Positions 5,358-61,880 of a stretch of 64,000 bases of DNA are shown here, in pieces. Location: positions 1 through 64,000 of IMG/VR virus record IMGVR_UViG_3300048995_000011, one strand, 5' to 3'. Both the position numbers and the translations under genes were made by a program. This stretch comes from a virus (taxonomy: Duplodnaviria; Caudoviricetes). The notes below the pieces were generated by a model. It had not been told where the DNA came from. It saw only the letters and a list, made by a program, of their open reading frames with translations, and did no database searches. Every line of letters starts with the position of its first letter. Within the stretch, counting starts at the first letter, position 1.

Positions 5358-6074
5358 GTGGTGAGCGCACCTGAGTGGGGAGTACTTCTGAGTGGGGTCG
5401 TGGGTTCTCAAGCCTACGGCCTCGCCGGACCCGAGTCGGACACAGACATCCTCGTCGTGGCGGCGGCGCCCACTGTGGAGTTCCACGGGCTCCGCCCGCC
5501 GACGGGCAAGGCTGCGTCCCGGGTCTTGCAGAACCCGGACATCACGACCCACGAGGCCGGGAAGTTCCTCGGACTGGCCCTGTCCTGCAACCCGACGATC
5601 ACTGAGCTGCTGTGGCTGCCGGCGGACGGGTACATCACCACCGAGCCGCTGGGCCGTGAGCTGGTCGAGATCCGACAGCGGCTGCTGAGCGCTCGCCGGG
5701 TGCGGGATGCGTACCTCGGGTACGCCACCCAGCAGTTCAAGCGCCTGTGCGACCGCGGAACGTCGTTCTCCTCGGACACGAGGAATCGCACGGAGAAGCA
5801 CGCACGGCATCTGCTGCGTTTGGTCCACTCCGGGCTGTCGCTGCACCTGACCGGCACGCTGGAGGTCCGGCTCTCGGACCCGGACCGGTACCGGGAGTTC
5901 GGTCGGATCGTTGCCACGGACCGGGAACGCGGGCTACAGCTCGCCGAAGCGGCCATCTCCACCACAGCGGACGCCATGGATTCCAGTCCGTCCGTGCTGT
6001 CCGACCACGCAGACGAGGAAGCGGCCGAGCAGTGGCTCCGCCGTGTCCGACGAGAGTTTCTGGAGGACAAGTGA
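5358..6074 (+). CDS. DNA polymerase beta-superfamily nucleotidyltransferase (PF10127/RlaP-like)
   Basis: GSQAYGLAGPESDTD signature; later KHARHLLRL motif. Confidence 0.85.
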   Translation: MVSAPEWGVLLSGVVGSQAYGLAGPESDTDILVVAAAPTVEFHGLRPPTGKAASRVLQNPDITTHEAGKFLGLALSCNPTITELLWLPADGYITTEPLGRELVEIRQRLLSARRVRDAYLGYATQQFKRLCDRGTSFSSDTRNRTEKHARHLLRLVHSGLSLHLTGTLEVRLSDPDRYREFGRIVATDRERGLQLAEAAISTTADAMDSSPSVLSDHADEEAAEQWLRRVRREFLEDK

Positions 6075-13968: not shown

Positions 13969-14736
13969 CTATGCGGGTAGCTGGTTGTAGAGGGCGTGGG
14001 CGATGGTGAGGGTCAGCGGCCACACCCCGGGGATCAACAGGACGCCGAGCACAGTGAAGGCGGGGAAAAGGCACGCCGTTTCGACCGTGCCACCGGTCCG
14101 GAACCGCATCCACCGCGGCGGCCGGATCTCGTACCAGGTTTCACCAGCGATCGGTATGGGCCACAGCCACGGGCAGCCGCTGAGCGTAGCCGAGTCCCCA
14201 AGGCAGTGCGTGAAGCAACCGAGCGCGACGGCGATCCCAATCCATCCACCCACATCCGCCAGAACGGCAGGGATGGATGTCGTCATAGCTATGGCGCCTG
14301 CTGCGACGGCCGTCACCGGGAGCACCCAGTCGCCGAGTGCGGTTTCCGCCAGGAGCACACCCAGGATGAGCACAACTCCCACGGCCCACGGACCCCACAT
14401 GGCTGCTGCCGCGGTCGTCAGCAAGCCGAGGAGCACGGCGGCTACGAGGGTGTGGGATGCGTGGCGGTGGGTTCCGGTGACGTTCTCGTCCCGTGGGCCT
14501 TTGGTGTGGCGGTAGATGGTGGCGGATGCACGGCGCAGGAGCCACGACGCGCCTTGGGAGAAGGGGCCGAGGAGGCGGGACGCGCTCGCACCTGGGTGGT
14601 CGAGGTCGGGCCCAAGTGCCCAGCCGGCGGTGGCCACCGCGAACAGCGCCACCTCGGGCAGGGTGTGCAGCCCGACGATCGGTGCCACCGCCAGGCCGGC
14701 ACACCAGCCGCTGGCCGCGTGGGAACGTCCGAGCAC
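13969..14736 (-). CDS. membrane-bound metal-dependent hydrolase (YdjM/PF04307-like)
   Basis: GRSHAASG, PDLDHP, HRHASHT, HCLGDSAT.SG.PWLWP; several TM helices. Confidence 0.85.
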   Translation of the reverse strand: MLGRSHAASGWCAGLAVAPIVGLHTLPEVALFAVATAGWALGPDLDHPGASASRLLGPFSQGASWLLRRASATIYRHTKGPRDENVTGTHRHASHTLVAAVLLGLLTTAAAAMWGPWAVGVVLILGVLLAETALGDWVLPVTAVAAGAIAMTTSIPAVLADVGGWIGIAVALGCFTHCLGDSATLSGCPWLWPIPIAGETWYEIRPPRWMRFRTGGTVETACLFPAFTVLGVLLIPGVWPLTLTIAHALYNQLPA

Positions 14737-14737
14737 C

Positions 14738-15469
14738 TCAGCTCACCCGCTTGTAGATCTTCAGGCGGTCGTGGATTCCCCGCCACTGGGGGATGTCCAC
14801 CGAGTCGACCTCCCCGAACAGCGGTTCAGGCGCCGGCGGGCAGTCGCATTCGTCGGTGAGGCACCAGCACCCGGAGTGTTCACCGAGCAGGGAGTGGAAG
14901 CGGCCATTGGCGGTGCAGCCTCCGGGGCCCTCGCCGACGTAGACGACGGTGTCCCCACTGAACAGTTCCAGGGCGGCGGCAGCCCACCCTTCGCTATAGC
15001 TGGGCCACACCGTCAGCAGTGTCCGGTCAGGGTGGCCGAGCACGGCCGTGTGATCGCCCAGGAGCACCTCGGACCATGCCTTGCCGCTGTGCCATTCAGG
15101 CTCCCCGCGCCCCGGCGGGGCAGGGTCATACGCGATGACATCGACGCCACGGTCCCGGAGCATCTTCGCCCAGTACCCGCCGCCGGCCCCGATCTCCACC
15201 ACACCCTTCGGGGAGTGCTTGGCGATCGCGTCCAGCGCCGCGCCGTTGGGGACAGCCCACGAGTAGCGCTTCTTGACGCCGTTCGTGGCCTCGTCCCGGT
15301 ACTTGTTCGGGTCCTCGCACATGCACCTCAGGCACCGGTCCCACGGCTGCATCGGCGTCCCAGGGAACACGATGTGCGCGTGGTCGCTGTGGTGCTTCTG
15401 GTGCTCGAGCTGGCTGAGGTAGTAGGCCAGCAGCGGGTTGGCTGTACTAGCCATCACGTCTTCGGTCAT
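14738..15469 (-). CDS. class I SAM-dependent methyltransferase-like protein
   Basis: VVEIGAGGGYWA glycine motif; VIAYD; LLTVWP; VVYVGE. Confidence 0.75.
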   Translation of the reverse strand: MTEDVMASTANPLLAYYLSQLEHQKHHSDHAHIVFPGTPMQPWDRCLRCMCEDPNKYRDEATNGVKKRYSWAVPNGAALDAIAKHSPKGVVEIGAGGGYWAKMLRDRGVDVIAYDPAPPGRGEPEWHSGKAWSEVLLGDHTAVLGHPDRTLLTVWPSYSEGWAAAALELFSGDTVVYVGEGPGGCTANGRFHSLLGEHSGCWCLTDECDCPPAPEPLFGEVDSVDIPQWRGIHDRLKIYKRVS

Positions 15470-16901: not shown

Positions 16902-16960
16902 CAAAGTTAGCACACTTGGCAGACTAGCCACAAGACCCAAAGTGAGCACACTTGGCAGAC
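16902..16960. repeat. two 23-bp direct repeats in a divergent intergenic region (probable operator)
   Basis: CAAAGT(T/G)AGCACACTTGGCAGAC at 16902-16924 and 16938-16960; -10 TATGAT at 16965-16970. Confidence 0.85.
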
Positions 16961-16976
16961 CCTCTATGATCGGCGC

Positions 16977-17387
16977 ATGCAGACCCGCAGCGCTCTCGAC
17001 ATACGCCGACACTGGACACAGTTCCTCGACGATGTAGAGCGCCACGGCCACACCATCGCCATCACCTACCGGCACAAGCCAGCCATGCAGGCGCTCCCGC
17101 CCGCCATCTACCGCGCCTATGCGGAGGCGCTCGATGACCGCCGCGGCGAACCCCAAAACATCGCCACCCCAGAACGGAAAGGCACCACCACGCCCAGCGT
17201 CACCCTCGACGACGTCACAGCTCCCGCCATCCGAGTCGACTCACAAACAGCCCGATCGTCGTGGCGCGAGGTGCAGCTCTACGCCATGGACAAAGGCCAC
17301 GTGCACATCACCCGATGGAAGAAGACCGCGCTCGTGCTGGTGCCCAGCGAGTGGGGGGAACGCGGCGCCCAAGCAGCCACCAGCTAG
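16977..17387 (+). CDS. tandem Phd/YefM-like DNA-binding protein
   Basis: two Phd-type modules: SALDIRRHWTQFLDDVERHGHTIAITYRHKP and DSQTARSSWREVQLYAMDKGHVHITRWKKTALVLVP. Confidence 0.7.
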   Translation: MQTRSALDIRRHWTQFLDDVERHGHTIAITYRHKPAMQALPPAIYRAYAEALDDRRGEPQNIATPERKGTTTPSVTLDDVTAPAIRVDSQTARSSWREVQLYAMDKGHVHITRWKKTALVLVPSEWGERGAQAATS

Positions 17388-17422
17388 CCCCTAGCGTGCG
17401 TCCCGATACGCCCGAATCGCCA

Positions 17423-17644
17423 CATCCTGACGACCCCGACAAGAGACGCTGTCGCGACGGCGACATGCGGAAACATCTCCACCCACCGCCGGGTGGTCCT
17501 GACGGTCAGGACCACCCGATCATCCTGCCGAAACCACTGTTCCCGCAGGCCAACGATCCTGCCGTGGATCGTGACGGGCATCCTGTCGGGATCGTGGCGG
17601 ACAGGACCTCGTCAGGATCCACGGCAGGATGGATCCTGACGAGG
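17423..17644. repeat. array of about 11 (G/C)(A/G)TC(C/G)TGNC(G/C) motifs in both orientations with nested inverted repeats; candidate clt/TRS locus
   Basis: copies at 17423, 17495, 17521, 17555, 17567, 17579, 17590, 17632 (+) and about 17599, 17610, 17622 (-); 14-bp IRs at 17490-17518 and 17607-17644. Confidence 0.65.
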
Positions 17645-17647
17645 TGG

Positions 17648-20179
17648 TTAGGACGCCCACCGGGCCATCGCTACCCGAAGCTCCCCGAGTCGGTAGGACA
17701 TGCTTCGGTCTCCCCCGCTGGGGCGTTCCGCCTCGATCTGGATGTCCCGCAGCGCGGCTGCGACCCGCCTGGAACCGTCCGTGTTCGCCGGCCAGTCGAG
17801 TTCGTCGGCGGCGACACGGAGCACGATCGCAGACTTCAGGTACTCCCCGTCCTCCGGGATCTGGGGGGATTTGGCGAGCGCGTCGAGGAGCCGCACCGTG
17901 TCCTCCGAGGGGGACGGTTGGGGAGATGCGGGGGCACCAAGGTAGGTGCGGATCGCGGCCAGAATGTCCCGCTTCCACCACCCCTGCTGTCCCTCAAACT
18001 CGACCGTGCTCAGTCCCCACGGCGGGGACGACAGTTCCCGCTGGAGTCCCTCCGCGTCGTCCCGTTCAATGACCCGCGCAAGGAGGGGACAGGGGACAAA
18101 GTCGGGTGCGTTTTCGGCGCGGATTTTCCCGAACACCGCGGTCATGGTTTCCCCGAGTGTCCCGTACTTGCGGATCTGGTCCCGGGCGTGCGCCATCTGC
18201 GCCGCTCCCTGGTCCAGCAGTTCCTCAGCCGTCAGTCTCACCTGTCCCGTGTCCCCGGTGTCCCCGCGCTGCGGTTGCTCGGGGACGGTCCCAGCCACTT
18301 CTACGGTGACAGATTCCCCGGGGGGAAGCGAGGGGGGAGCCGGCCAGGTGACTCCGTAGGTGACGTGCGCGGCCCGCGCAAGTTCGGGGAGGTACTCCGG
18401 GGACCACCGCCGGTGGTAGGCGTCCCCCAGTTGGCTGGTCACGTACTCAGGGAGCCGCGGCTTGTTGCGTGTGTTGCGGGTCGCGACCGGTGCGATCAAC
18501 TCGTCCCCGTCGAGGTGGAACGCTTTCGCGGGAATTGCGCGGGGGGTTTCCACCGACGGCTGCACCAACTGCTCGTTGTTGGATAGCTGGGTGGTGTCGA
18601 CGTGGTCCATGCGGACGAGGGTTGAGGTGCCGTCGAAAGCGGTCTCGGTGCGCCCGGCGATGCGGACCGTGATGTTGCGTTTCACCTTGCTGCCGTGGGT
18701 GCCGAGTGCGTCCATCAGACCGAACTGGGTCAGCAGGTACAGCCCGTCACCTGCGGCGCGGAGTTCCCGCGCGCAGGCGTTGATGATCTGGGATGCGTTC
18801 CAGTCATGCCCGTCGAACGTCCTTGACTTGATCGATGAGTAGTCCTCCAGCAGCGCGGAGGCTTCCTCCAGGAAGAACATCACCGACGGATCGTCGGGGG
18901 TGGCGATGCGTTGCCCAGTGGCGCCGATCTGCTCGTTGTGGATGCACACCACGTGGTAGAACTCGGCCAGCAGGTCGGTGACGCGTTGCGCGTTCTGCCC
19001 GGCGATGGCGTCCACCACGGGTTCGTCGGTGTGTCCGAGCAGCCACGGTGCCAACCAGGGGATCGACAGGGGGGTGAGTTTCGATGTCGCCCCGAACCAC
19101 GGCACCGCGTTGTTGGTGCGCCCCACGCCGGCGATGATGTTGTTCGCCCACACCGTCTTCCCGCCGCCGGTGGTGGCGACGTGCACCACGGTTTTCCCGT
19201 ACAAGGTCAATTCGACGGGTTTCCCGTCCTCGTACACTCCGGGCACGATGGGTTTCAGGAACGACGAAATTGGCTGGTCAAACCGGTAGGGCAAGTCCTG
19301 CCCGAACACGTTCTTGGTGGATACGTGCAGGTAAAACATGTGTGCCGCACCGGACTCTTCGGCCCGGACATGGTGCGCGGCGAGCGCGATCCCCTGCAAC
19401 GCGTATTCGTGGGCGAGAATCGATGCGATCGAACCGCACGCGTCCTGCAGCTTCCCGAACTTGTACGGCGTGTCGGGGTTGTCGAGGATCGTCAACCGGA
19501 ACCCAGCGTCGGTTTCCTTCTTGTCGATGACCTTCATCCCTGGCACCCCGCCGCGGTCCATGAGCGGGGCGTATTCGGATGCGATCTTCTCCTGGTAGGC
19601 GGCGAGTTGCGACGCCGAATGCAGTGCCAGGTCCTCAGCCTTCGCCTCGCTGATATCAGCCTTCCGGCCAGGAGCCTTGGTGGTGATCATCCCGTAGAAC
19701 GCGCCCAACGCCGCACCGCCAACCACAAGCAAACCGAGGGCGTTGATGTGTACCAGCAGCCACCGCGACTCCGGCGGGCGGGATGCCGCGTACACCATCC
19801 ATGCGGTCGTGACCAGCCCCGCGCCCCACATAAACCAGGTCGCTTCCTTGGTGTGCTGCGCCCCGTATTCAATCTCGTTGTAGAACTTCCGCACCGTGAG
19901 CACGGCGGCGACGGTGGTGGCCGTGCCGGGGAGGATCATCAGCCACATGTTGAGGTGGGTCCAGTGCGCCAACCCGAGGACGGCGTACAACCACAGGACT
20001 GCGGCGAACGGGTGCAGCCACCGCGCGTCCGGATCCCACTCGCGTGCCGCATCGCCGACGGATCGCTTCACCCCAGGAATGGCAGGAGTGGTCGATGTTG
20101 TCGGTTGCACGCGACGGGGCGGACTCGCGCCACCAGATCTGGGTGGACCCGGCGGCCGGGACTTCAGGGGGGTTGTCAC
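17648..20179 (-). CDS. traB: FtsK/SpoIIIE-family conjugative DNA translocase (TraB-like)
   Basis: N-terminal TM helices, Walker A ATTGGGKT, Walker B FFLEEA, RAAG..L.LLTQ, probable C-terminal winged helix; GAGGAG RBS before GTG at 20179 (843 aa). Confidence 0.8.
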   Translation of the reverse strand: MTTPLKSRPPGPPRSGGASPPRRVQPTTSTTPAIPGVKRSVGDAAREWDPDARWLHPFAAVLWLYAVLGLAHWTHLNMWLMILPGTATTVAAVLTVRKFYNEIEYGAQHTKEATWFMWGAGLVTTAWMVYAASRPPESRWLLVHINALGLLVVGGAALGAFYGMITTKAPGRKADISEAKAEDLALHSASQLAAYQEKIASEYAPLMDRGGVPGMKVIDKKETDAGFRLTILDNPDTPYKFGKLQDACGSIASILAHEYALQGIALAAHHVRAEESGAAHMFYLHVSTKNVFGQDLPYRFDQPISSFLKPIVPGVYEDGKPVELTLYGKTVVHVATTGGGKTVWANNIIAGVGRTNNAVPWFGATSKLTPLSIPWLAPWLLGHTDEPVVDAIAGQNAQRVTDLLAEFYHVVCIHNEQIGATGQRIATPDDPSVMFFLEEASALLEDYSSIKSRTFDGHDWNASQIINACARELRAAGDGLYLLTQFGLMDALGTHGSKVKRNITVRIAGRTETAFDGTSTLVRMDHVDTTQLSNNEQLVQPSVETPRAIPAKAFHLDGDELIAPVATRNTRNKPRLPEYVTSQLGDAYHRRWSPEYLPELARAAHVTYGVTWPAPPSLPPGESVTVEVAGTVPEQPQRGDTGDTGQVRLTAEELLDQGAAQMAHARDQIRKYGTLGETMTAVFGKIRAENAPDFVPCPLLARVIERDDAEGLQRELSSPPWGLSTVEFEGQQGWWKRDILAAIRTYLGAPASPQPSPSEDTVRLLDALAKSPQIPEDGEYLKSAIVLRVAADELDWPANTDGSRRVAAALRDIQIEAERPSGGDRSMSYRLGELRVAMARWAS

Positions 20180-20241
20180 TGCTGCTCTCCTCGGAATGAT
20201 TCCGCCCCGCACCCCAACCGGGGTGCGGGGCGGCCGGCTGG

Positions 20242-21732
20242 TTAGCCGAGCGGGTTCTGGCCGACGTCCCACGCCTTGTCGAGCGGGGACTGCCGGGCAA
20301 GCTTCTCGATCTCGTCCTCGTGCTTGCGGTGCCAGATCTGCCCGGTCTCCCCGACTTCGTCCGCGATGCGTTTCTCCGCCGCACCGAGAGACTGCAATGC
20401 AGCCCCGAACGCTGGGTCCACCCGCACTGATTCGGGGATCTTCTCCGCCGCCGACTGCCAGATCGCCGCGTGCTGCTCGGCGTGGTTCGACGCCCCCGCC
20501 ACGAAGTCCATGACGGACGTGGCGTTCTCGTAGTCCTTGTTCTTGATGCTGGCCATCGCTTCGTTGACCGGCTCGAACGGATCGGCCATGTTCGGTGTTC
20601 CTTTCGGTGTCCCCGTGGTTGCCCCGTTGCGGCGTGCAGCGGGGGGTTCTGGTGATGGACCAACCCGGTCCGGTCTCGGTTTCAACCGTTCCCGTACAGG
20701 TGGCGTGCGGCGGGACGCGTCGGCGGCTTCCAGCCCTTCCTTCGTCGCTGCCCGCGTGTCTTTTCTGGTGCCGCGGTTCCGGCGGGCGTCTCGGGCACGC
20801 TCCCTTGCCTTGCGGCTGATGCGGGTCAGCGCGGATAGCTTCCGGCCGCCAGCGCCACTGCGTTGCGACTTGCCACGGAACAAGCCCCCATCGGACCGGC
20901 CACTGCTGCGGTGGCCCGTTCCACCGCCGAACAACTTCCCCCAGCCGCGTCCCCGAGTGCGGCTTCCCGACCCGGTGGAGCGTCCCCGAGACGCCCCGCT
21001 GCCGCGGCCCTTGCCGAACGTCGACCCAAGTCGCCCGGCTCCCCGGCCCCCCGTGGTCCTGCCGGCGCCCAATCGTCGACGTCCCGACCCAGCCGCACCA
21101 CTGGACCGCCCTTTCGTTGTGCCCCGGCCACCCAGCGGCGAACCCGTGCCGCGACCACGGCCGGACTTCAACAGGCCAGAACCACGCCCCGACTTTTTCC
21201 CCGTGGGTGCTCCACCGGTGCGGGACGCGCCACCGGAACGGGACTTGCCGAGCAGTCCCCGTCGACCCGCTGAACCCGCACCTGGCCGGGAGTCTGCGCT
21301 GCGGCCGTTCCCGAGGAGTCCCTTACCTCCGCCTGCGCTGCGGCCGCGGCCTAGTAGAGCACCGGACCTGCTGCCGCCGCTTGATCCCCGGCGGGCACCC
21401 TTGCCGAGCAGCCCTCCGCCTCCGCTGCGGGAACCGCCGCCGCGGCTACCGACCCTGCTGCCTGTTGGGCGATGTCCACCGCCAGCGCCGAGGCGTGGAC
21501 GACTGGATCGGTTCAACCCGACGCGCGCCGCCACGCTGGGAGCGAACCGACGCAGCGCCATTACACCCCCAGCGCTGGCTGCGGTCACCCCGGTAGCGAC
21601 TGCCAACCCGACAGGACCGAACGCTCCGCCGAGGGTCTCGGCCATCACCACCGCAGTGGGGGCGGCAGCAGTAACAGCGGCCCGCGCGGTCTTGCGGTCT
21701 TCGGTGGCCGTGTCGTCGTTGTCGGGCATCAC
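20242..21732 (-). CDS. membrane-anchored Gly/Arg/Ser-rich protein with a helical C-terminal domain (transfer/spread-associated)
   Basis: hydrophobic N-terminal segment, long low-complexity basic linker, internal RBS+ATG at 20589. Confidence 0.7.
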   Translation of the reverse strand: MMPDNDDTATEDRKTARAAVTAAAPTAVVMAETLGGAFGPVGLAVATGVTAASAGGVMALRRFAPSVAARVGLNRSSRPRLGAGGGHRPTGSRVGSRGGGSRSGGGGLLGKGARRGSSGGSRSGALLGRGRSAGGGKGLLGNGRSADSRPGAGSAGRRGLLGKSRSGGASRTGGAPTGKKSGRGSGLLKSGRGRGTGSPLGGRGTTKGRSSGAAGSGRRRLGAGRTTGGRGAGRLGSTFGKGRGSGASRGRSTGSGSRTRGRGWGKLFGGGTGHRSSGRSDGGLFRGKSQRSGAGGRKLSALTRISRKARERARDARRNRGTRKDTRAATKEGLEAADASRRTPPVRERLKPRPDRVGPSPEPPAARRNGATTGTPKGTPNMADPFEPVNEAMASIKNKDYENATSVMDFVAGASNHAEQHAAIWQSAAEKIPESVRVDPAFGAALQSLGAAEKRIADEVGETGQIWHRKHEDEIEKLARQSPLDKAWDVGQNPLG

Positions 21733-21769
21733 TGCCTCCCCTCTCGATCAGTCGCTGGGTTTGGTGTGG

Positions 21770-22075
21770 TCAGTAGCGCTGCGGGTAGCCGTTTCTGGCC
21801 GGGTAGGTCGGCTGCCCATGGGGCACCAGGTGCCGTGCGGTTTTCGTCTCCACCCACACGTTTTTCGAGTAGTATCCGAGCGCAGTGGCGGCGGCGAGGG
21901 CGACCTCTTCCAGCTTCTCCCGCAGCGCTTCCATGGTTTCCTCCCCGAACGGGAGGTCCCCCGCACTGTCGCGGGGGAGCACGTTCTCGAGGTGGTTGGC
22001 GAGCTCGTCCCAGTCGGCGGCGTGTTCAGCCCAGTAGTTCACTGCCTCGGTGGCGGTGTCGAGTTTCGGGATCAT
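21770..22075 (-). CDS. hypothetical protein in transfer operon
   Basis: AGGAAAGGA RBS; 101 aa. Confidence 0.65.
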   Translation of the reverse strand: MIPKLDTATEAVNYWAEHAADWDELANHLENVLPRDSAGDLPFGEETMEALREKLEEVALAAATALGYYSKNVWVETKTARHLVPHGQPTYPARNGYPQRY

Positions 22076-22091
22076 GACGTGAATTCCTTTC

Positions 22092-22280
22092 CTACTTGGC
22101 AATGCTGCGGACGAATGTGGCGATGGCAGTGATGCAGTCCTTGCCCCATCCGATGATGGTGTTGGCCAGGTCCGCGGCCTGGTCCCCGGCGGTGACGGGT
22201 TGGGTGACGATGTAGCTGATGAGGCCGACGACGAGGACTGCGGACACGAACCCTCGCAGTGTCAACAGGTTGCGGATCAT
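22092..22280 (-). CDS. small membrane protein (spread/pilin-like)
   Basis: 62 aa; hydrophobic helix FVSAVLVVGLISYIV. Confidence 0.6.
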   Translation of the reverse strand: MIRNLLTLRGFVSAVLVVGLISYIVTQPVTAGDQAADLANTIIGWGKDCITAIATFVRSIAK

Positions 22281-22282
22281 GT

Positions 22283-23512
22283 CTATGGTCTCCCTGGGTT
22301 GGTGGCTTCGGTGCACCATGTCTTGACGTGCTTCTTGCAGTAGCCCGCGGCCGCACCGATTGCCCGGTCGACTTCGGCGCCTTTGATGCTGTCGGCCGGG
22401 CGCCCGTTGGCGACTTGAGCCATGAACCACGCACGGCCCTGTTCCTTCAGCGATTTGGGCATGGAGGTGCGTTTCCCTGTCGTGGTTGCACGGCTCGTGC
22501 TGTTCCGCTTCGGCTGAGGCTTTGCGTGTTCGACTCGCTCAGGGACAGTAGGAGGTTCACCATCGGCGGCGGCACACGTCTGCGCTTCCGGCCAGAACCG
22601 CTCCAACACCTTCTCCACCGTGTTGATGGAGTCCCACCCGACCGGAAGTTCGATCACGTCGACCGTGGCCACAGCTGCCCCGCTGGCAGCTTCCCCAGCT
22701 AGTTCGGCTTCCTTCGACACGGACTCGTCCTCGCCGGGGTCGTCGGGCACTGCCAGGTGCTCGGTGGTGGGGGTGAAGATCCGGCCGAGTACGTCATCGG
22801 TGACGGCGACCGGGATGGTCGGGTTTCCGTGGCGACGGACGTAGGCCATCTGCCATGCCGTTTCCAGCGGCACCGCTGTACCGAACGTCGCCCGGATACG
22901 GCCGCACTCGCGCATCACCTTGAAGTGGCGTCGCCACCGCAGCGCCCACAGCTTGATCTCGTCGGCCGTCATGCCGGACTTCACGTGGCTGGTGCGGTGC
23001 ATGTACAGCTCCCACGCCCCGACACCCATCAACGAGGCCAACGCGTAGACGACACCCACCTTCACGTCGGTGCTGGAGCCGTGGGCGTAGTTGATTGCGG
23101 CGGCGAGGGCGGCGAACACGAACGTCACGGTGCGGTAGAGGCGCACGGGGGTGCCGTTGACGGAGTCGGCGTAGAGGAACGCACCCAACCAGCAGAGGCC
23201 CTCGATGAGGAGTGTGGCGACGATAGCCACAAGCGCTTCAGGGAACGTCCATTGGCCTCCGGTGAGCTGGTGCAGGAACCACTGCATCTGCGCGGGGACG
23301 GCGACCGCGACGGACAGGATGATGGCGGTGACGGTGGCGGCCAGGGCACGTCGACGGGCGAGTCCGGACAGCAGTTCGCGCCGTGACGTCCTGCGAGCGT
23401 CCCGTTTGGCGGTGCGGGCCTCGTCGCTGTCGGCGCGTAGGACACGCCTCTCCTCGATGCGTTCGAGGCGGCGGCGGTGCCTGCGCGTGGCGGAGGCCCT
23501 GGGTGTCTTCAC
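22283..23512 (-). CDS. multi-pass membrane protein, DUF2637/Spd-like plasmid transfer protein
   Basis: GTGA-coupled start; four TM helices with LIEGLCW and AAAINYAH motifs; soluble C-terminal tail. Confidence 0.65.
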   Translation of the reverse strand: MKTPRASATRRHRRRLERIEERRVLRADSDEARTAKRDARRTSRRELLSGLARRRALAATVTAIILSVAVAVPAQMQWFLHQLTGGQWTFPEALVAIVATLLIEGLCWLGAFLYADSVNGTPVRLYRTVTFVFAALAAAINYAHGSSTDVKVGVVYALASLMGVGAWELYMHRTSHVKSGMTADEIKLWALRWRRHFKVMRECGRIRATFGTAVPLETAWQMAYVRRHGNPTIPVAVTDDVLGRIFTPTTEHLAVPDDPGEDESVSKEAELAGEAASGAAVATVDVIELPVGWDSINTVEKVLERFWPEAQTCAAADGEPPTVPERVEHAKPQPKRNSTSRATTTGKRTSMPKSLKEQGRAWFMAQVANGRPADSIKGAEVDRAIGAAAGYCKKHVKTWCTEATNPGRP

Positions 23513-23772
23513 CGGGCTGGCTGCCTTTCCGACTGTCGAAGCTTGTCTTCGGCTCGGCGGGCGCGGGTGTGTCTGCCGTGGATCTCGGACCAGATGGCGT
23601 AGGCGCTGAGGGCGGCGAGGCTGGCGAGGCAGAGCACGAACCCGGCGGCGACGAGAAGGACACCCTTCACCAGCAGACCCTCGACTTGGGTGGCCAGGAG
23701 GGTCGTGGCGGCTGTTCCGCAGAGCGCGAGGAGGGCGGCGACGAGGTAGGGGCGGGGGTTGTCGTCGTTCAT
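23509..23772 (-). CDS. small two-TM membrane protein
   Basis: hydrophobic helices; coupled stop/start. Confidence 0.65.
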   Translation of the reverse strand: MNDDNPRPYLVAALLALCGTAATTLLATQVEGLLVKGVLLVAAGFVLCLASLAALSAYAIWSEIHGRHTRARRAEDKLRQSERQPAR

Positions 23773-24086
23773 CGGCTCTGCTCCTTGTCTGCACCGGTCT
23801 TCGCGTACTTCATGGCGTGGCGACCATCAAGAAATGCTCCGACGGCGTCGAGGCATTCACGAAGTGCGGAGCCCAGCGTGAACACGCTGAGGGCGAGCAG
23901 TGTCCAAGAGATGGCAACCCACAGGTCGGCGTCCGATCGACTGTCGTTCAGCGTTGTCAGTGCCATGGCAAGGCCGATGGATCCGATGGCGAAGTAGGCG
24001 AGGCTGGCGAAGGCGCTGCGAATCGCCTCTCTCGTAAAGAAGCGGTGAGCGCGTAGGGCTTCGCCTGCTCGGTTGTCGGCGTTCAC
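23769..24086 (-). CDS. two-TM membrane protein
   Basis: GTGA overlap; two hydrophobic helices. Confidence 0.65.
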   Translation of the reverse strand: MNADNRAGEALRAHRFFTREAIRSAFASLAYFAIGSIGLAMALTTLNDSRSDADLWVAISWTLLALSVFTLGSALRECLDAVGAFLDGRHAMKYAKTGADKEQSR

Positions 24087-24304
24087 TGCTGCTCCTGGGT
24101 GTCGCGGGCTTCTCGCGCCCATCGGCGGATGTTGCTGCGGGGGATGCCCGCTTCTCTGGCGATGGCCCGGGTGGACATGCCCTCATGAGTGGCGAGTTCG
24201 ACGACGATGGGTCCCGCTTGGGTTCGTGCTGTGGCCAGCCCCTTCAGTTGATCTAGGAGTTTTTGGGCGCGGTCACTCAATGCGGGGGGGTCGTCGCTCG
24301 CCAT
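24083..24304 (-). CDS. HTH regulator heading the transfer operon
   Basis: GMSTRAIAREAGIPRSNIRRW. Confidence 0.8.
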   Translation of the reverse strand: MASDDPPALSDRAQKLLDQLKGLATARTQAGPIVVELATHEGMSTRAIAREAGIPRSNIRRWAREARDTQEQQ

Positions 24305-36883: not shown

Positions 36884-39649
36884 GTGTTGAAGGCCCCGAA
36901 GAAGGTTGATCCGCGGTTCCTGAACACGTCTCCGCCTCCCGGGTATTTCCGGGACTTTTCGTGTGGCGCGTGGCGGTCGCTGCCGTTCCCTGACGATCCG
37001 ACGACGGATCCTCGCACTACCCGGTCGCTCGGTTATGTGGTGATCGACTGGGCGGAGAAGAACCTAGTCCACCACCTGTCGGGGAAGCCGTGGCGGTTCA
37101 CTCCGTCGCAGAAGCGCTTCTTGGTGCTCTGGTACGCGGTCGACGAGGATGGCCGTTGGGTGTATCGGCGTGGGGTTCGACGTGGAGCGAAAGGTCCGAT
37201 CGCGAATACCACTCCCGTCATGACGCCCACAGGTTGGGTGAAGCATGGGGACCTCGCTGCGGGCAGCGTCGTGTTCGCTGAAGATGGCACCCCGACTCGG
37301 GTCCTTGAGGTTCACCCGGAAGTTGACGAGGACTGCTACAGGATCGATTTCAGTGACGGGTCGTGGGTGGTGTCCACTGGCGGCCACCGTTGGCCTTTGG
37401 AGTTTCTGACCCCGCACGGGAACTACGTCGAGAAGATCACGAACGCGCGTGAGATGGCAGCGAATCTGACTCGCAAGGACGGTGCACGGCTGTGGCGTCA
37501 GCAGGTCGCGCCTGCTGTCGACCTTCCCCGGGCAGAGTTGCTGATCGACCCGTATGTGATGGGGGCGTGGCTGGGGGACGGATCAACCCACGACGGTCGA
37601 ATGGCCGGCATAGATCCGGAGGTGTGGAATCAGTTCGAGCGGCGCGGCTACGCCATAACGCATGATCCCCGGTACCAGCGGTGGACAGCGCACGGTCTAG
37701 TCACTCAACTCCGGGAACTCAACCTGCTGGGTGACAAGAGAATCCTGGCGGGCTACCTCCGTGGATCTGTCGAGCAGCGGTGGGAGCTGCTCCGCGGGCT
37801 GATGGACACCGATGGTGGGTGCGATCCGCGTAACGGAATCGCGGAGTTCACCACGACAAGTCCCGCATTGCGGGACGGCGTGTCCGAACTGCTGGCGTCC
37901 CTGGGTATCAAATTTGGTGTCCGGGACGGACGTGCCACATATTACGGGAGGGACTGCGGCCCCAAGTGGCGGTTCGGGTTCAAGGTCTACGCGGAGACTC
38001 CATTGTTTTACATAGAGCGGAAGCGGGCCCGTCAGAAGTCCCCGAGCGCCGGCCACCGGGGTTTGTCTTTGACCCGCCGGGTTGTTGCGGTCACGCCTGT
38101 CGCGTCAGTCCCGGCTCGGTGTATCACCGTGGCGCATCCGTCGCACCGCTACATGGTGGGCGAGCGGAACATCGTCACATGCAACACAGGCAAGTCGCCC
38201 CTGCTCGCCGCGAAGCTGCTGTGCGAGCTCGCCGGCCCGGTGCGGTTCTCCCACTTCGACGAGCTGGGTAACCCCATCGGCGTACCGCATCGGATGGCGT
38301 TGGTGCAGGTCGCGGCGAACTCGGAGGCTCAGGCGAAGGATGTGCTTCGGGTCGCGAACGCGATGGTCCCGAAGAAGCTGAAAGCTGAGATCAAGTTCGA
38401 GGCTGGCCAGACCGCGTCGACCGCAGCATCGGGGCGTATTGAGGTTTTGACATCGTCGATGTCCTCGGCTGAGGGTGACCCCGCGACGTTCATCGGTTTC
38501 GACGAGCCGCATCACGCGAAGAAGTCGAACGGTGGCCACGACATGGCTGGCGTGGTTCGACGCAACGTGGTGAAGTCGCCGGGCGGCCAGGCGCGGGTGT
38601 GTGAGTTCACGAACGCGCACGAAGAGGGTGAAGACTCGGTCGCTGAGCGCACCTATCTGGCGTGGCAGGACCAGGTTGCGGGGAAGACGAACTACCAGGA
38701 CATCCTGTATGACTCGACCGAAGCCCCGGCGTATCTGAGTTTGCACACGGAAGCGGATGTGTGGGCTGGTCTGCGGGCGTCGTATGCGGACTCCCCGTGG
38801 AATGACTTGCAGGCGATAGCGCAGGAGATCGACATGACGGATACGTCCGTCGCCGACTCCATCAGGTACTACCTGAATGCTTTGGCTGCGAACGAGTCGA
38901 GTTGGGTTGACCCGCGTCGTTTCGACGACCGTGGACGCCCGGAAATCGTGGTGGCCGATCAGGATGAGATCGCCCTGTTCCTCGACTGTTCGAAGTCGGG
39001 TGACGCAACCACGCTGTCGGGGTGTCGCATCTCCGATGGCCATGTGATCTCGCTGGGTGGGTGGCAGAAGCCGCACGGTCACCGCGGTAAGGGGTGGTTG
39101 GCTCCGCGGGAGCAGGTGGACGCCAAGGTTCGTGAGGCGTTCGACCGCTACAAGGTCGTGTGGTTCGGGGTTGATCCGTCGCCCGCGAAGGACGACGACA
39201 CGGAGGCCTCGTACTGGCGGCCGCTGGTGGACGATTGGCATCGGGATTTCCGGGCCACGCTGTTGGTGTGGGCTTCGCCGCAGAACGCGGTGGAGTTCGA
39301 CATGCGCCTGTCCAGCCCGGGTGGCCGGGATCGGAACCGTCTGTTCACTGAGGCTGCGATGCAGACCGCGGTGGACATCGACGGTGAGGTTGACGAGTTC
39401 GGGCAGGTTGTTGTCGCCCCCACGTTGACGCATGACGGGGATTCGATGCTGCGGGTTCATGTGCACGCGGCTCGGCGCCGGCCGAATCAGTGGGGTTTCA
39501 CCCTCGGCAAGGAGAACCGGGATTCGAACCGGAAGGTCGACTACGCGGTGACGATGGTCGGTGCCCGTCTGGGCCGGCGGTTGGTGTTGAACTCGGCGGC
39601 GTGGCAGAAGCGGGCGAAGAAGCGAACCGGTAGGGCATTCCTGATATAG
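36884..39649 (+). CDS. terL: terminase large subunit with an intein
   Basis: reconstituted Walker A RGAKG|TGKSP, Walker B FIGFDE, nuclease LFLDCSKSGD and KVDYA motifs. Confidence 0.95.
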   Translation: MLKAPKKVDPRFLNTSPPPGYFRDFSCGAWRSLPFPDDPTTDPRTTRSLGYVVIDWAEKNLVHHLSGKPWRFTPSQKRFLVLWYAVDEDGRWVYRRGVRRGAKGPIANTTPVMTPTGWVKHGDLAAGSVVFAEDGTPTRVLEVHPEVDEDCYRIDFSDGSWVVSTGGHRWPLEFLTPHGNYVEKITNAREMAANLTRKDGARLWRQQVAPAVDLPRAELLIDPYVMGAWLGDGSTHDGRMAGIDPEVWNQFERRGYAITHDPRYQRWTAHGLVTQLRELNLLGDKRILAGYLRGSVEQRWELLRGLMDTDGGCDPRNGIAEFTTTSPALRDGVSELLASLGIKFGVRDGRATYYGRDCGPKWRFGFKVYAETPLFYIERKRARQKSPSAGHRGLSLTRRVVAVTPVASVPARCITVAHPSHRYMVGERNIVTCNTGKSPLLAAKLLCELAGPVRFSHFDELGNPIGVPHRMALVQVAANSEAQAKDVLRVANAMVPKKLKAEIKFEAGQTASTAASGRIEVLTSSMSSAEGDPATFIGFDEPHHAKKSNGGHDMAGVVRRNVVKSPGGQARVCEFTNAHEEGEDSVAERTYLAWQDQVAGKTNYQDILYDSTEAPAYLSLHTEADVWAGLRASYADSPWNDLQAIAQEIDMTDTSVADSIRYYLNALAANESSWVDPRRFDDRGRPEIVVADQDEIALFLDCSKSGDATTLSGCRISDGHVISLGGWQKPHGHRGKGWLAPREQVDAKVREAFDRYKVVWFGVDPSPAKDDDTEASYWRPLVDDWHRDFRATLLVWASPQNAVEFDMRLSSPGGRDRNRLFTEAAMQTAVDIDGEVDEFGQVVVAPTLTHDGDSMLRVHVHAARRRPNQWGFTLGKENRDSNRKVDYAVTMVGARLGRRLVLNSAAWQKRAKKRTGRAFLI
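37196..38185 (+). mobile_element. class 3 intein (330 aa) with LAGLIDADG homing endonuclease
   Basis: starts PIANTTPVMTPTGW; block B GHRW, block F RCI, block G VTCN|T; LRGLMDTDG and GAWLGDG motifs. Confidence 0.9.
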
Positions 39650-60314: not shown

Positions 60315-61880
60315 GTGGCACTGCCCGCCGATCTCGACCAGATTCGCGTCTACGGAACCTACGTGGACTACAACGGTGACGCGCGATCCGGGAAGTACAC
60401 GTTCACCTCAGCCGTGCGCGTCCGGTCGGCAGCACACCACACCGCCGTCGTGGAGTCCTCCGTCATCGGCATCCTCGACGCCACGGGGCTTCTGAAAGCC
60501 GAAGACGGCACCACCGATCTCAAGCTGGTCGCCACCGACGACGCCGACGGCAACCCCACCGGATGGACGTGGACCGTCAAGGAGGAGATCACGGGCCTCT
60601 CGCCGCGGGTGTTCAACCTCTCGGTACCGGCCGATGGGGGCGACCTGGACCTGACGGGCGCCGCACCTGATGTTCCCCCAGTGAACCCGGGCGTGGTGGC
60701 CGTGACCAGGGTGAACAGCAAGTTCCCCGACTCCACAGGCAAGGTCACGTTGGTGGCGGGCGACATTCCCGCCGCACCCGTCAGCCACAACCACTCCGCC
60801 ACGGACATCACCTCCGGAACCGTCGGCTACGGCCGGCTCCCGGTCGGCACCACGGCCGGCTCGGTGGCCGCTGGCGACGACACTCGCATCACCAGCGCGG
60901 TGCAGCCCGCCCGCCAGGTCATCGCGGGCACCGGCCTCACCGGTGGGGGGAATCTCGCCGCGGACCGGACACTGTCCGTGGCTTACGGTACCGCTGCCGG
61001 GACCGCTGCCCAGGGCAACGACCCGCGGCTCTCGGACGCGCGGATGCCCACCGCGCACGCACACGCGATCGGTGACACCACCGGCCTCCAGGGAGCGCTC
61101 GACGGCAAGGAAGCCGCCGGCACTGCCGCCGCTGGGGACGCGGCACACGTCGCCGCGGTCGACCCGCACACCCAGTACCACAACAACACTCGCGGTGACG
61201 CCCGCTATGCGCTGATCACCCACGCGCACACCGTCTCCGACGTGACCGGGCTGCAGACTGCATTGGACGGCAAGTCCGATAGCGGTCACACCCACGACTA
61301 CAGCACCCTCACCGACATTCCGGCCAGCTTCCCCCCGGACGCCCACGTGCACCCCGTGGCGGATGTGACAGGCCTGCAGGTCGCCCTCGACGGCAAGGAA
61401 ACCGTGGGGGCGGCGTCCGGGGCGATATCGGCGCATCTCGCTGCAGGTGACCCGCACCCGCAGTACCTGACCCCCAGTGAGGCGAACACCGTCTACGCCC
61501 CGGTGTCCCACGCCCACAACGCCACGGACATCACCGGCATCCCGATGCACGCCGAGTTCTCCCGGTCGGGGACGGTCACGGTCGGGTCGGGAACGTTCCG
61601 CTGGTACAACGACTCAGGGAGAACCGTGTCGATCACCGCTGTGCGGGCTTCGGCGGGGACCGCCCCCACCGGGGCGCCCTTGGCGGTAGCGGTGAAGAAG
61701 AACGGTGCCGCGATCCCGGGTGCGAACGCGTCTCTCGCGGCGGGCAGCAACTCCGCGAAGAACACCGTCAGCGGACAAACCGTGGCGGACGGGGACTACC
61801 TGACGGTGGATGTGACCGCGGTCGGCAGCACCGTCCCCGGCTCTGACCTCGTCGTACAGGTGTGGGCGGTGATTGTGTAG
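60315..61880 (+). CDS. tail fibre protein with HxH repeats
   Basis: AGGAGG RBS; repeated H.H...D(I/V)TGL; D.H.QY repeats. Confidence 0.8.
   Translation: MALPADLDQIRVYGTYVDYNGDARSGKYTFTSAVRVRSAAHHTAVVESSVIGILDATGLLKAEDGTTDLKLVATDDADGNPTGWTWTVKEEITGLSPRVFNLSVPADGGDLDLTGAAPDVPPVNPGVVAVTRVNSKFPDSTGKVTLVAGDIPAAPVSHNHSATDITSGTVGYGRLPVGTTAGSVAAGDDTRITSAVQPARQVIAGTGLTGGGNLAADRTLSVAYGTAAGTAAQGNDPRLSDARMPTAHAHAIGDTTGLQGALDGKEAAGTAAAGDAAHVAAVDPHTQYHNNTRGDARYALITHAHTVSDVTGLQTALDGKSDSGHTHDYSTLTDIPASFPPDAHVHPVADVTGLQVALDGKETVGAASGAISAHLAAGDPHPQYLTPSEANTVYAPVSHAHNATDITGIPMHAEFSRSGTVTVGSGTFRWYNDSGRTVSITAVRASAGTAPTGAPLAVAVKKNGAAIPGANASLAAGSNSAKNTVSGQTVADGDYLTVDVTAVGSTVPGSDLVVQVWAVIV

What the first reader, a model, noticed from the sequence alone, without database searches (positions are those of the whole stretch)
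17648..24304. Tailed phage carrying a Streptomyces-type TraB/Spd conjugation operon (possible conjugative phage-plasmid)
Seen: an eight-gene coupled operon of an HTH regulator, three small membrane proteins, a DUF2637/Spd-like multi-pass protein, a Gly/Arg-rich anchored protein, one unknown and an 843-aa membrane-anchored FtsK-type ATPase. It sits in a genome whose head, tail and lysis genes all appear intact. Established: in mycelial actinomycetes a single TraB translocase transfers dsDNA between hyphae and Spd proteins support intramycelial spreading, in plasmids and AICEs. Inference: this element could spread both as virions and by hyphal conjugation, bypassing receptor- and entry-level defences. 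I know of no characterised example but cannot check the literature.
Basis: partly seen in the sequence, partly recalled or inferred. Interest (0 to 1): 0.88.

Follow-up and report, generated by a model that had tools for sequence, protein, structure and literature searches.

The report
Plasmid-type DNA pump operon in actinophage
A complete temperate tailed phage of a high-GC actinomycete carries the membrane DNA pump, helper membrane proteins and repeat-rich docking site that actinomycete plasmids use to push double-stranded DNA between cells. It may therefore also spread without virus particles, but a Streptomyces plasmid-phage with such transfer genes (pZL12) is already described.

Summary
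Window 17648-24304 (minus strand) holds eight tightly coupled genes: an HTH protein, three small membrane proteins, a DUF2637-like protein, a 101-aa protein, a Gly/Arg-rich anchored protein and an 843-aa membrane-anchored ATPase. They lie in a complete 90.8-kb siphovirus genome with intact head, tail and lysis genes.

The ATPase matches no Pfam or NCBIfam model, but its predicted fold is the FtsK motor. In trees it groups with plasmid Tra proteins (pSQ10) and a pZL12-like plasmid-prophage ATPase, not with chromosomal FtsK or EccC.

Directly after its stop codon lies a dense ATCCTGNCG repeat array. Relatives, plasmid pSQ10 and bona fide TraB loci carry arrays with their own motifs, as plasmid clt sites do. 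The protein upstream of the ATPase shares a C-terminal domain with its pSQ10 counterpart.

"Phage-plasmid" is not supported: there is a tyrosine integrase and no ParA or ParB. "No characterised example" is wrong: pZL12/phiZL12 (Zhong 2010) is a characterised transferable Streptomyces plasmid-phage with a homologous ATPase.

This scan has noted the same kind of module in at least 21 other genomes. I file it as a new member of a known kind. Virion-independent transfer remains untested.

The parts
24083..24304 (-). First gene: 73-aa helix-turn-helix protein, the likely regulator of the operon
   Evidence: Weak HTH_28, CENP-B_N and sigma-70 region 4 matches at residues 34-67. A 71-aa protein sits in the same position in relative L006. 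It is not GntR-type.
23769..24122 (-). Small membrane protein, up to 117 aa with two hydrophobic helices (start uncertain; overlaps the HTH gene by 40 nt)
   Evidence: Hydropathy peaks at residues 37-55 and 69-87. No family match.
23509..23772 (-). Small membrane protein, 87 aa with two hydrophobic helices; ATGA overlap with both neighbours
   Evidence: Hydropathy peaks at residues 10-28 and 37-55; junctions of -4 and -4 nt. Only sub-threshold Pfam hits.
22283..23512 (-). DUF2637-like multi-pass membrane protein (409 aa) with a basic N-terminus and a long C-terminal domain; candidate SpdB2 analogue
   Evidence: PF10935 scores 22.1 bits against a cut-off of 22.8; the PIS 136 orthologue reaches 22.8. 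Orthologues lie next to the ATPase in PIS 136 and in an Amycolatopsis prophage (38-41% identity). DUF2637 genes lie within 2.1 kb of 3 of 8 TraB-like genes and of one AICE-type FtsK-like gene in Streptomyces genomes. SpdB2 of pSVH1 is a 4-TM, 409-aa protein (PMC4447253).
22092..22280 (-). 62-aa single-pass membrane protein
   Evidence: Its start lies 2 nt after the upstream stop. One hydrophobic helix. Homologue of 60 aa at the same position in L006.
21770..22075 (-). 101-aa soluble protein of unknown function, conserved in the module
   Evidence: Homologues at the same position in L006, L009, L010 and L014 (33-39% identity). No family match.
20242..21732 (-). 496-aa anchored protein: N-terminal TM helix, Gly/Arg/Ser-rich low-complexity middle, and a conserved helical C-terminal domain of about 115 aa
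   Evidence: Composition and TM helix; family alignment A3. Its C-terminal residues 437-493 match the C-terminus of the 563-aa protein encoded directly upstream of tra on plasmid pSQ10 (hhalign 96%, E 3.4e-9). The match to pZL12-72 is weak.
17648..20179 (-). 843-aa membrane-anchored FtsK-fold ATPase of the plasmid Tra clade: TM helices, coiled coil, alpha/beta motor, two C-terminal winged-helix-like units
   Evidence: Motifs: Walker A TGGGKT, Walker B FFLEEAS, TQ motif. AF2 model pLDDT 80. Best Foldseek match is the FtsK motor at 1e-12, then EccC and TcpA. hhalign E-values: pSQ10 Tra 3.4e-17, pZL12-71 1.9e-10, pIJ101 Tra 4.6e-8, chromosomal FtsK 1.1e-6. Trees. C-terminal model.
17420..17645 (.). 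clt-like array: at least 8 copies of [A/G]TCCTGNCG in both orientations, partly arranged as palindromes, starting 3-4 nt past the ATPase stop in a convergent intergenic region
   Evidence: Sequence. 10 of 66 one-mismatch hits in the window fall within 217 bp. 8 of 17 genome-wide hits fall within 226 bp, against about 0.02 expected. No terminator-like T-run. Analogous private arrays occur beside the ATPase in L006, L014, L009 and pSQ10 and after bona fide traB genes.

Best explanation
The eight-gene operon and the repeat array after it form a plasmid/AICE-type dsDNA translocation module. This module is a conserved backbone part of a lineage of temperate siphoviruses of Pseudonocardiaceae-like actinomycetes (PIS 136 relatives).

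Shown by computation:
- The last gene encodes a membrane-anchored ATPase with the FtsK motor fold, belonging to the clade of actinomycete plasmid Tra proteins.
- A dense array of short repeats lies directly after that gene, and the repeat motif differs between related elements.
- A DUF2637-type membrane protein and a protein sharing a domain with the pSQ10 transfer region accompany it.

Inferred mechanism:
- The ATPase forms a hexameric pore in the membrane.
- Its two C-terminal winged-helix units bind the ATCCTGNCG repeats on phage DNA, as TraB binds clt.
- The motor then pumps unprocessed double-stranded phage DNA (excised or replicating) across hyphal cross-walls or into adjoining hyphae.
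- The DUF2637 protein and the small membrane proteins act like Spd proteins.

The phage would thus spread within or between mycelia without virions, in addition to normal infection. I put 0.8 on homology to the Tra/clt module and about 0.5 on the function being cell-to-cell or compartment-to-compartment movement of the phage genome.
For: Fold: the FtsK motor is the top match (E 1e-12, TM about 0.65 of the target).

Motif order: Walker A, Walker B and the TQ-R motifs align to FtsK.

Profile comparisons: the match to pSQ10 Tra covers 328 columns, from the TM region through a shared PWLxPW insertion (E 3.4e-17). The match to pZL12-71 is E 1.9e-10. Chromosomal FtsK gives only 1.1e-6 over 175 columns.

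Trees:
- All 88 family hits plus pSQ10 Tra form a clade with support 99, excluding FtsK, EccC and the NF041214 TraB clade.
- With LG+C20, the Tra-plus-phage clade has SH-aLRT 80 and excludes FtsK (100). The group of pSQ10, the pZL12-like plasmid-prophage and the phage family has support 94-96.

Array. Positive controls show 6-8 private 7-mers right after bona fide traB genes. The literature states that clt regions hold direct 8-bp repeats bound by the cognate TraB (PMC4447253; PMC3583192).

Partners: the link between DUF2637 and Tra-like genes, and the Gly/Arg-rich protein's domain shared with pSQ10.

Conservation: the module is conserved in phage-like contexts.
Against: - No experiment exists for this lineage.
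- The ATPase matches neither PF01580 nor the TraB equivalog.
- The DUF2637 match is just under Pfam's cut-off, and no operon protein resembles pIJ101 SpdA, SpdB or KilB.
- The regulator is not GntR-type.
- The deep tree backbone is weakly resolved (SH-aLRT 80).
- The repeat motif was defined after seeing it.
- FtsK-like genes are common in Streptomyces phages, including 131-134-kb phages. This suggests some function useful in ordinary infection.
- The C-terminal winged-helix assignment rests on modest scores (Z 5.5-7.5).
Confidence: 0.55

Rival explanations
1. The pump moves phage DNA, but for segregation rather than horizontal spread. It loads on the repeat array and carries phage genomes across closing sporulation or vegetative septa, so that every compartment or spore inherits a copy (carriage or pseudolysogeny).
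For: The same anatomy fits this reading: membrane-anchored FtsK-fold motor, cis array and tandem winged helices. FtsK and SpoIIIE do exactly this for chromosomes. TraB is also implicated in intramycelial spreading (PMC4447253).
Against: An integrating prophage (integrase) is inherited with the chromosome and would not need this. The nearest characterised relatives are transfer genes (pZL12 tra; PMC3583192).
Confidence: 0.17
2. The ATPase is an auxiliary 'FtsK-like' host-takeover gene that perturbs host cell division, development or chromosome segregation during infection. This is the reading commonly given for actinophage ftsK genes. The repeats would then be a regulatory or terminator region.
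For: PHROG 31069 files it under moron/host takeover. Reviews list ftsK among phage genes that may manipulate development (PMC10117723). 57 Streptomyces phage records carry FtsK-like translocases.
Against: It does not group with chromosomal FtsK. The private repeat arrays change with the protein across relatives and also occur after plasmid tra genes. There is no T-run terminator. Accessory genes are shared with a plasmid transfer region.
Confidence: 0.12
3. The module acts in defence or exclusion: a membrane translocase complex that blocks or expels incoming DNA of competing phages or plasmids in the lysogen.
For: It is a membrane complex placed in a leftward operon apart from the virion genes. 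Prophages often carry exclusion genes.
Against: No PADLOC-type or known exclusion homology was seen in the searches run. A cis array on the phage's own DNA is not expected for exclusion. The PADLOC library itself was not searched.
Confidence: 0.05
4. The contig is an assembly chimera of a phage and a plasmid or AICE.
For: It is a metagenome-derived virus record.
Against: The record has 127-bp terminal repeats and a CheckV completeness of 100%, and GC content is even across the window. The same module lies in the isolated phage PIS 136 and in several independent phage-like contigs and prophages.
Confidence: 0.02

Closest known systems
pZL12 / phiZL12, Streptomyces plasmid-phage (Zhong et al. 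2010, J Bacteriol 192:3747; NC_013420)
   Same: A roughly 90-kb element with a full set of tailed-phage genes plus a transfer locus. It has a membrane-anchored FtsK-like ATPase (pZL12-71, 725 aa) homologous to this one (hhalign 96.9%, E 1.9e-10, 330 columns). That gene is preceded by a large unknown protein and a membrane protein and followed by the packaging genes. [quoted passage not shown] A pZL12-like 90-kb plasmid-prophage ATPase falls in the same clade.
   Different: pZL12 replicates as a plasmid with ParAB and has a GntR regulator (PMC4487206). This phage has an integrase, no ParA or ParB and a small HTH protein. Its ATPase is only distantly related, its host family is different, and it has a clear repeat array directly after the gene. 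I could not read the pZL12 paper itself.
Tra/TraB-clt-Spd transfer systems of actinomycete plasmids and AICEs (pSVH1, pIJ101, pJV1, pWTY27, pSQ10)
   Same: A single FtsK-like membrane ATPase; a clt made of short repeats next to the 3' end of tra, seen here and in the pSQ10 and TraB controls; and accompanying small membrane proteins, including a multi-pass one. The pSQ10 Tra is the nearest named protein (E 3.4e-17), and the gene upstream of it shares a domain with the Gly/Arg-rich protein.
   Different: The module lies in a virion-encoding genome. There is no match to the NF041214 TraB equivalog or to PF01580, no detectable similarity to pIJ101 SpdA, SpdB or KilB, and no GntR Kil-Kor partner.
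Saccharomonospora phage PIS 136 (JX006077), gp41 'FtsK Spo IIIE protein'
   Same: An isolated 94.9-kb phage of the same lineage. Its ATPase is 31-32% identical over more than 80% of the length, and the DUF2637-like protein is about 41% identical overall and 61% in the core. It also has a repeat array (GTGGAAC, 11 copies) near the module.
   Different: In PIS 136 the DUF2637 gene is divergent from the ATPase gene, the array lies upstream rather than downstream, and a second truncated ATPase paralogue follows. The record annotates the gene only as FtsK/SpoIIIE.
Chromosomal FtsK/SpoIIIE
   Same: The motor fold, membrane anchoring, and sequence-directed dsDNA pumping through winged-helix recognition of short motifs.
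   Different: Chromosomal FtsK forms a separate, fully supported clade and matches PF01580 at E about 1e-72, whereas this protein gives no match. Its recognition sites are dispersed over the chromosome, not clustered in one array.

Membership tests
Actinomycete Tra/TraB-clt dsDNA transfer system | Single FtsK-fold P-loop motor ATPase | tested here: met
   AF2 model with pLDDT 80. Foldseek's best matches are FtsK motor domains at E 1e-12. Walker A, Walker B and TQ motifs are invariant in the family.
Actinomycete Tra/TraB-clt dsDNA transfer system | N-terminal membrane anchor | tested here: met
   Long N-terminal helices in the model and hydropathy peaks. The region is conserved and aligns with the TM region of pSQ10 and pZL12 Tra.
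Actinomycete Tra/TraB-clt dsDNA transfer system | C-terminal winged-helix domain that reads clt | tested here: inconclusive
   The C-terminal 200-aa model (pLDDT 86) shows two helix-helix-helix-hairpin units. VIA-align matches Rex, MarR, IclR and an oriT-binding accessory protein at Z 5.5-7.5. Foldseek matches are weak: ScpB, TubR. DNA binding was not tested.
Actinomycete Tra/TraB-clt dsDNA transfer system | cis-acting locus of short repeats beside the 3' end of tra | tested here: met
   8 of the genome's 17 [AG]TCCTGNCG sites lie in the 226 bp directly after the stop codon. Relatives and pSQ10 have their own arrays, and TraB control loci do too. The function of the array is untested.
Actinomycete Tra/TraB-clt dsDNA transfer system | Groups with plasmid/AICE Tra proteins rather than FtsK or EccC | tested here: met
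   FastTree with 114 rows and IQ-TREE LG+C20 with 50 rows. Support is 94-99 for the pSQ10/plasmid-phage/phage clade but only 80 for the wider Tra clade.
Actinomycete Tra/TraB-clt dsDNA transfer system | Spd proteins, including a multi-pass SpdB2-type protein | tested here: inconclusive
   The DUF2637 match is 22.1 bits against a cut-off of 22.8. DUF2637 genes lie next to Tra-like genes in Streptomyces. There is no similarity to pIJ101 SpdB, which itself has no Pfam match. No pSVH1 SpdB2 sequence was at hand.
Actinomycete Tra/TraB-clt dsDNA transfer system | GntR-type TraR/KorA repressor forming a Kil-Kor pair | tested here: not met
   The only regulator in the operon is a 73-aa HTH protein with transposase- or sigma-like HTH matches.
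Actinomycete Tra/TraB-clt dsDNA transfer system | Demonstrated virion-independent transfer or pock formation | not testable with these tools
   Needs matings.
NCBIfam NF041214 plasmid_TraB (equivalog) | Score over the 800-bit cut-off | tested here: not met
   No match at E <= 0.1. pSQ10 Tra scores only 56.5 bits, and pIJ101 Tra gives no match.
Pfam PF01580 FtsK_SpoIIIE | Match over the 24-bit cut-off | tested here: not met
   No match at E <= 0.1 on the protein or at E <= 10 on the genome. In one genome, bona fide TraB also fell outside a 1e-8 search.
Phage-plasmid | Plasmid maintenance genes (ParA/ParB or a plasmid Rep) instead of integration | tested here: not met
   A tyrosine integrase lies at genome 69873-71075. 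There is no ParB_N or ParA (AAA_31) match at E <= 1 in the whole genome. Replication genes are the DnaB and DnaC-like type. A plasmid Rep was not searched for specifically.
Type VII secretion EccC/EssC | Three tandem FtsK-like ATPase domains | tested here: not met
   There is one ATPase domain. EccC is a separate clade with support 100.

The most novel reading that the evidence does not exclude
A whole lineage of integrating temperate actinophages (PIS 136 relatives) keeps a TraB-like pump with a private clt-type loading site as backbone equipment. These phages use it to move excised or replicating phage genomes through cross-walls and into neighbouring hyphae. They would thus spread lysogeny or infection without virions and bypass receptor- and entry-level defences, making them in effect AICEs with capsids.
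Probability: 0.4. Interest if true: 0.75.

Novelty: new member of a known kind. Interest (0 to 1): 0.47.

Why it matters
If the pump really moves phage DNA between hyphal compartments or cells, temperate actinophages would have a second, particle-free transmission route. That would change how plaque spread, lysogenisation, host range and receptor-based resistance are understood in mycelial bacteria, and it would blur the line between phages and AICEs. The clear pairing of a pump with a private repeat array in several related elements gives a direct, cheap test: binding specificity first, then matings. PIS 136 is a cultured relative in which to run it. The concept has a precedent in pZL12, and this scan has met the module repeatedly, so this case adds breadth rather than a new principle.

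Tried and rejected
- Pfam, PHROGs and NCBIfam scans of all eight proteins gave only sub-threshold or generic hits, apart from PHROG 31069 for the ATPase.
- PF01580 does not detect the ATPase even at E 10.
- Megablast of the region against phage records found nothing.
- The word-indexed protein search found only 16 relatives, none with a functional name (two are labelled 'hypothetical protein'). Names for ten distant cluster representatives were almost all absent.
- I recalled that Smith et al. 2013 proposed phage FtsK as an adaptation to mycelial growth. The paper is not held, and from my memory of its abstract the adaptation concerns the TTA codon, so I dropped this lead.
- The pZL12 paper (PMC2897331) and any pSQ10 paper could not be read.
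- BLASTP of the operon proteins against the pIJ101, pSQ10 and pZL12-like loci found only the ATPase.
- A global 7-mer clustering statistic does not by itself exceed Markov simulations for this genome (maximum 7, against up to 8 in simulations). The case for the array rests on the degenerate 9-mer, its position, and its recurrence in relatives and controls.
- No clear array lies directly after the ATPase of the pZL12-like plasmid CP108469.
- I considered that the array could be an intrinsic terminator and rejected this because there is no T-run.
- I considered that the array could be the replication origin and judged this less likely, because a separate repeat cluster lies in a gene-free gap next to the DnaC-like and DnaB genes at genome 85.47 kb.
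- The Microcystis host label of the second phage hit was set aside because that locus is 74% GC.
Full report
WHAT IS THERE

The window is bases 1-64000 of a 90,793-bp IMG/VR virus record with 127-bp direct terminal repeats and a CheckV completeness of 100%. GC content is about 66% throughout.

On the minus strand between 24304 and 17648 lie eight genes with coding-type third-position GC. Gaps between consecutive genes are -40, -4, -4, +2, +16, +37 and +62 nt, and purine-rich ribosome-binding motifs precede most starts. In order, the genes are:
- a 73-aa HTH protein
- two small proteins with two hydrophobic helices each
- a 409-aa DUF2637-like protein
- a 62-aa single-pass protein
- a 101-aa soluble protein
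- a 496-aa protein with one TM helix, a Gly/Arg/Ser-rich middle (28% G, 19% R) and a conserved C-terminal domain
- a large ATPase

It restores the family's MT.P N-terminus and follows a GAGGAG motif.

The virion and lysis genes are complete: TerL (interrupted by a LAGLIDADG intein), SPP1-type portal, protease, scaffold, coat protein, major tail protein, chaperone, an 1805-aa tape measure, tail and fibre proteins and an endolysin.

THE ATPASE

No Pfam or NCBIfam model matches it. PF01580 finds nothing in the whole genome even at E 10. Only PHROG 31069, 'FtsK/SpoIIIE-like', matches, at 1e-10.

A 16-member family alignment (A1) shows an invariant Walker A (T-G-x-G-K), a Walker B (EEAS) and a TQ...RN...R block in the FtsK order. 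The profile finds FtsK in the PDB only weakly, at E 0.01.

The AlphaFold model (pLDDT 80) has N-terminal membrane helices, a long coiled coil, an alpha/beta motor and a C-terminal region. Foldseek places the motor on Pseudomonas and E. coli FtsK (E 1e-12, about 420 columns), ahead of EccC, the pCW3 coupling protein TcpA and HerA.

The C-terminal 200 residues were modelled alone (pLDDT 86). They form two helix-helix-helix-hairpin units that match winged-helix DNA binders at modest scores (Rex Z 7.0, MarR about 6, an oriT-binding accessory protein 5.5).

WHICH FTSK-LIKE PROTEINS IS IT KIN TO?

Profile-profile comparison of A1 gave the following:

| Compared with | E-value | Aligned columns |
|---|---|---|
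| Tra of Nocardiopsis plasmid pSQ10 | 3.4e-17 | 328 |
| pZL12-71 | 1.9e-10 | 330 |
| pIJ101 Tra | 4.6e-8 | 279 |
| Chromosomal FtsK (Pseudonocardiaceae) | 1.1e-6 | 175 |

The pSQ10 match includes the TM region and a shared PWLxPW-G insertion after Walker A.

An exhaustive profile search found 1028 cluster representatives at E <= 1e-3. Those listed are mostly 600-900 aa long and matched from the membrane region through the motor. pSQ10 Tra hits 154 of the 169 proteins held by BLASTP, whereas chromosomal FtsK hits 21, largely through its gamma domain.

Two motor-domain trees were built:
- FastTree, 114 rows: all family hits plus pSQ10 Tra form a clade with support 99. It excludes chromosomal FtsK (100), EccC (100) and the NF041214 TraB clade (100).
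- IQ-TREE, LG+C20, 50 rows: plasmid and AICE Tra proteins plus the phage family form a clade that excludes FtsK, with SH-aLRT 80. Within it, pSQ10 Tra, a pZL12-like plasmid-prophage ATPase and the phage family group at 94-96.

The deep backbone is weak, and these are quick searches.

THE CIS SITE

The 260-bp convergent intergenic region directly after the ATPase stop holds at least eight copies of [A/G]TCCTGNCG in both orientations, some arranged as 14-21-nt palindromes.
- Ten of the 66 one-mismatch matches in 64 kb fall within 217 bp.
- Eight of the 17 genome-wide matches fall within 226 bp, where about 0.02 is expected.
- No terminator-like T-run is present.

I defined the motif after seeing it, so the stronger argument is recurrence. 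Relatives carry arrays of their own beside the same gene:

| Element | Motif | Copies in array / in locus | Position |
|---|---|---|---|
| L006 | ATCCTG (most copies read ATCCTGCC) | 9 / 11 | downstream of the ATPase |
| L014 | GTGGACC | 11 / 14 | downstream of the ATPase |
| L009 | CCTGCCAC | 8 / 8 | one gene further on |
| pSQ10 | CGTAACG | 6 / 6 | starts 4 nt after tra |

As positive controls, loci with bona fide TraB (NF041214 above its cut-off) and TraB-like genes show six to eight copies of a private 7-mer right after the gene.

The literature describes clt in the same terms. Direct 8-bp repeats are bound by the cognate TraB (PMC4447253). In pWTY27, TraA footprints on a 175-bp clt that begins inside traA (PMC3583192).

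L006, whose ATPase is 52% identical to this one, has a similar motif. More distant relatives have different motifs, as expected if the protein and its site co-evolve.

THE PARTNERS

The DUF2637 match is marginal: 22.1 bits against a cut-off of 22.8. The PIS 136 orthologue reaches the cut-off.

In five Streptomyces-type genomes, DUF2637 genes lie within 2.1 kb of 3 of 8 TraB-like genes and next to one 522-aa AICE-type FtsK-like gene. The family is therefore linked to transfer modules.

Thoma et al. describe SpdB2 as a 4-TM protein with N- and C-terminal domains. [quoted passage not shown]

The conserved C-terminal 57 residues of the Gly/Arg-rich protein match the C-terminus of the 563-aa protein encoded directly upstream of tra on pSQ10 (96%, E 3.4e-9). 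Two adjacent genes of the operon thus have counterparts, in the same order, in a plasmid transfer region.

No operon protein resembles pIJ101 SpdA, SpdB or KilB, and there is no GntR regulator.

LIFESTYLE AND KIN

Outside the window the genome encodes:
- a tyrosine integrase (69873-71075) beside an XRE/DUF5753 regulator
- DnaB, a DnaC-like loader, an AAA_24 protein and an exonuclease
- RNase H and methylases

No ParB_N or ParA match exists at E <= 1. This is an integrating temperate phage, not a phage-plasmid.

The module is conserved in the following elements:
- the isolated Saccharomonospora phage PIS 136
- metagenomic phage-like contigs
- a complete 76-kb IMG/VR genome
- an Amycolatopsis thermophila-type prophage with WhiB, Tad3 and 7-deazaguanine genes
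- an Actinosynnema contig
- a Pseudonocardiaceae contig end that also carries ParA, ParB and an integrase

In 151 sampled genomes of that family, 31 had a match at E <= 1e-5, and four or five of these were close. That tally includes one unpublished genome, G062; no other claim rests on it.

PRIOR KNOWLEDGE

pZL12/phiZL12 is a characterised Streptomyces plasmid-phage (Zhong et al. 2010). I could not read the paper.
- PMC4487206 and PMC7157519 describe it as a plasmid with phage particle genes and ParAB.
- Its record shows a GntR regulator, small genes, a membrane protein, a 766-aa protein, a 725-aa FtsK-like protein, and then terminase and portal.
- A 90-kb Streptomyces plasmid with terminase, capsid and a type III PKS carries a clade member.
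- 57 Streptomyces phage records carry annotated FtsK-like translocases detectable with that protein.

Reviews read phage ftsK genes as possible developmental manipulators (PMC10117723). This scan has flagged the same kind of module in at least 21 other genomes, with follow-ups reaching the same closest relative. I had found both the array and pZL12 before opening those notes.

VERDICT

The operon is a real, conserved, plasmid-type DNA-pump module with a clt-like site inside a complete integrating phage. The most likely function is sequence-directed pumping of phage dsDNA across membranes or septa. Whether that serves horizontal, virion-free spread (my preferred reading), vertical segregation or something else is untested. 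It is a new member of a known kind.

Noticed in passing
window 37037-39649: The large terminase subunit is 870 aa. The two terminase halves flank a LAGLIDADG-type insertion, so an intein interrupts the gene (Pfam LAGLIDADG_3 at residues 249-295; PHROG terminase matches on both sides).
   Followed up: partly
L027 (PP395638.1, 'Microcystis phage Mwe-JY05'): This record carries a family member (30% identity), but the locus is 74% GC. That is far from what I recall for Microcystis (about 42% GC), so the stated host looks doubtful; an actinomycete-like host is more plausible.
   Followed up: partly
L001:11435-12637 (PIS 136, PIS_039): PIS 136 has a second, truncated paralogue of the ATPase (motor region only, 31% identity to residues 259-577) directly after the full-length gene.
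   Followed up: no
genome 85470-85900 (outside the window; L005 about 5470-5900): A second repeat cluster (CCGGTCACG-like, six copies) lies in a gene-free gap between an AAA_24 gene region and the DnaC-like and DnaB genes. It is a candidate replication origin.
   Followed up: no
window 61880-63877: A 665-aa protein at the end of the tail module carries a PhoD-like phosphatase domain (Pfam PF09423, E 2e-15).
   Followed up: no
window 16902-16960: Two 23-nt direct repeats (96% identical, 36 nt apart) lie just upstream of the plus-strand ORF 16977-17387, which converges on the ATPase gene.
   Followed up: no
L008 / L013 (QZFT01000111.1, Pseudonocardiaceae bacterium YIM PH 21723): A family member (39% identity) sits at the end of a 185-kb contig, with ParB, ParA and an integrase 6-10 kb upstream. 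This may be a plasmid-borne or plasmid-prophage version of the module.
   Followed up: no
window 13969-15469: Beyond the convergent ORF 16977-17387, further along the minus strand, lie a YdjM-like inner-membrane protein gene and a methyltransferase-like gene.
   Followed up: no
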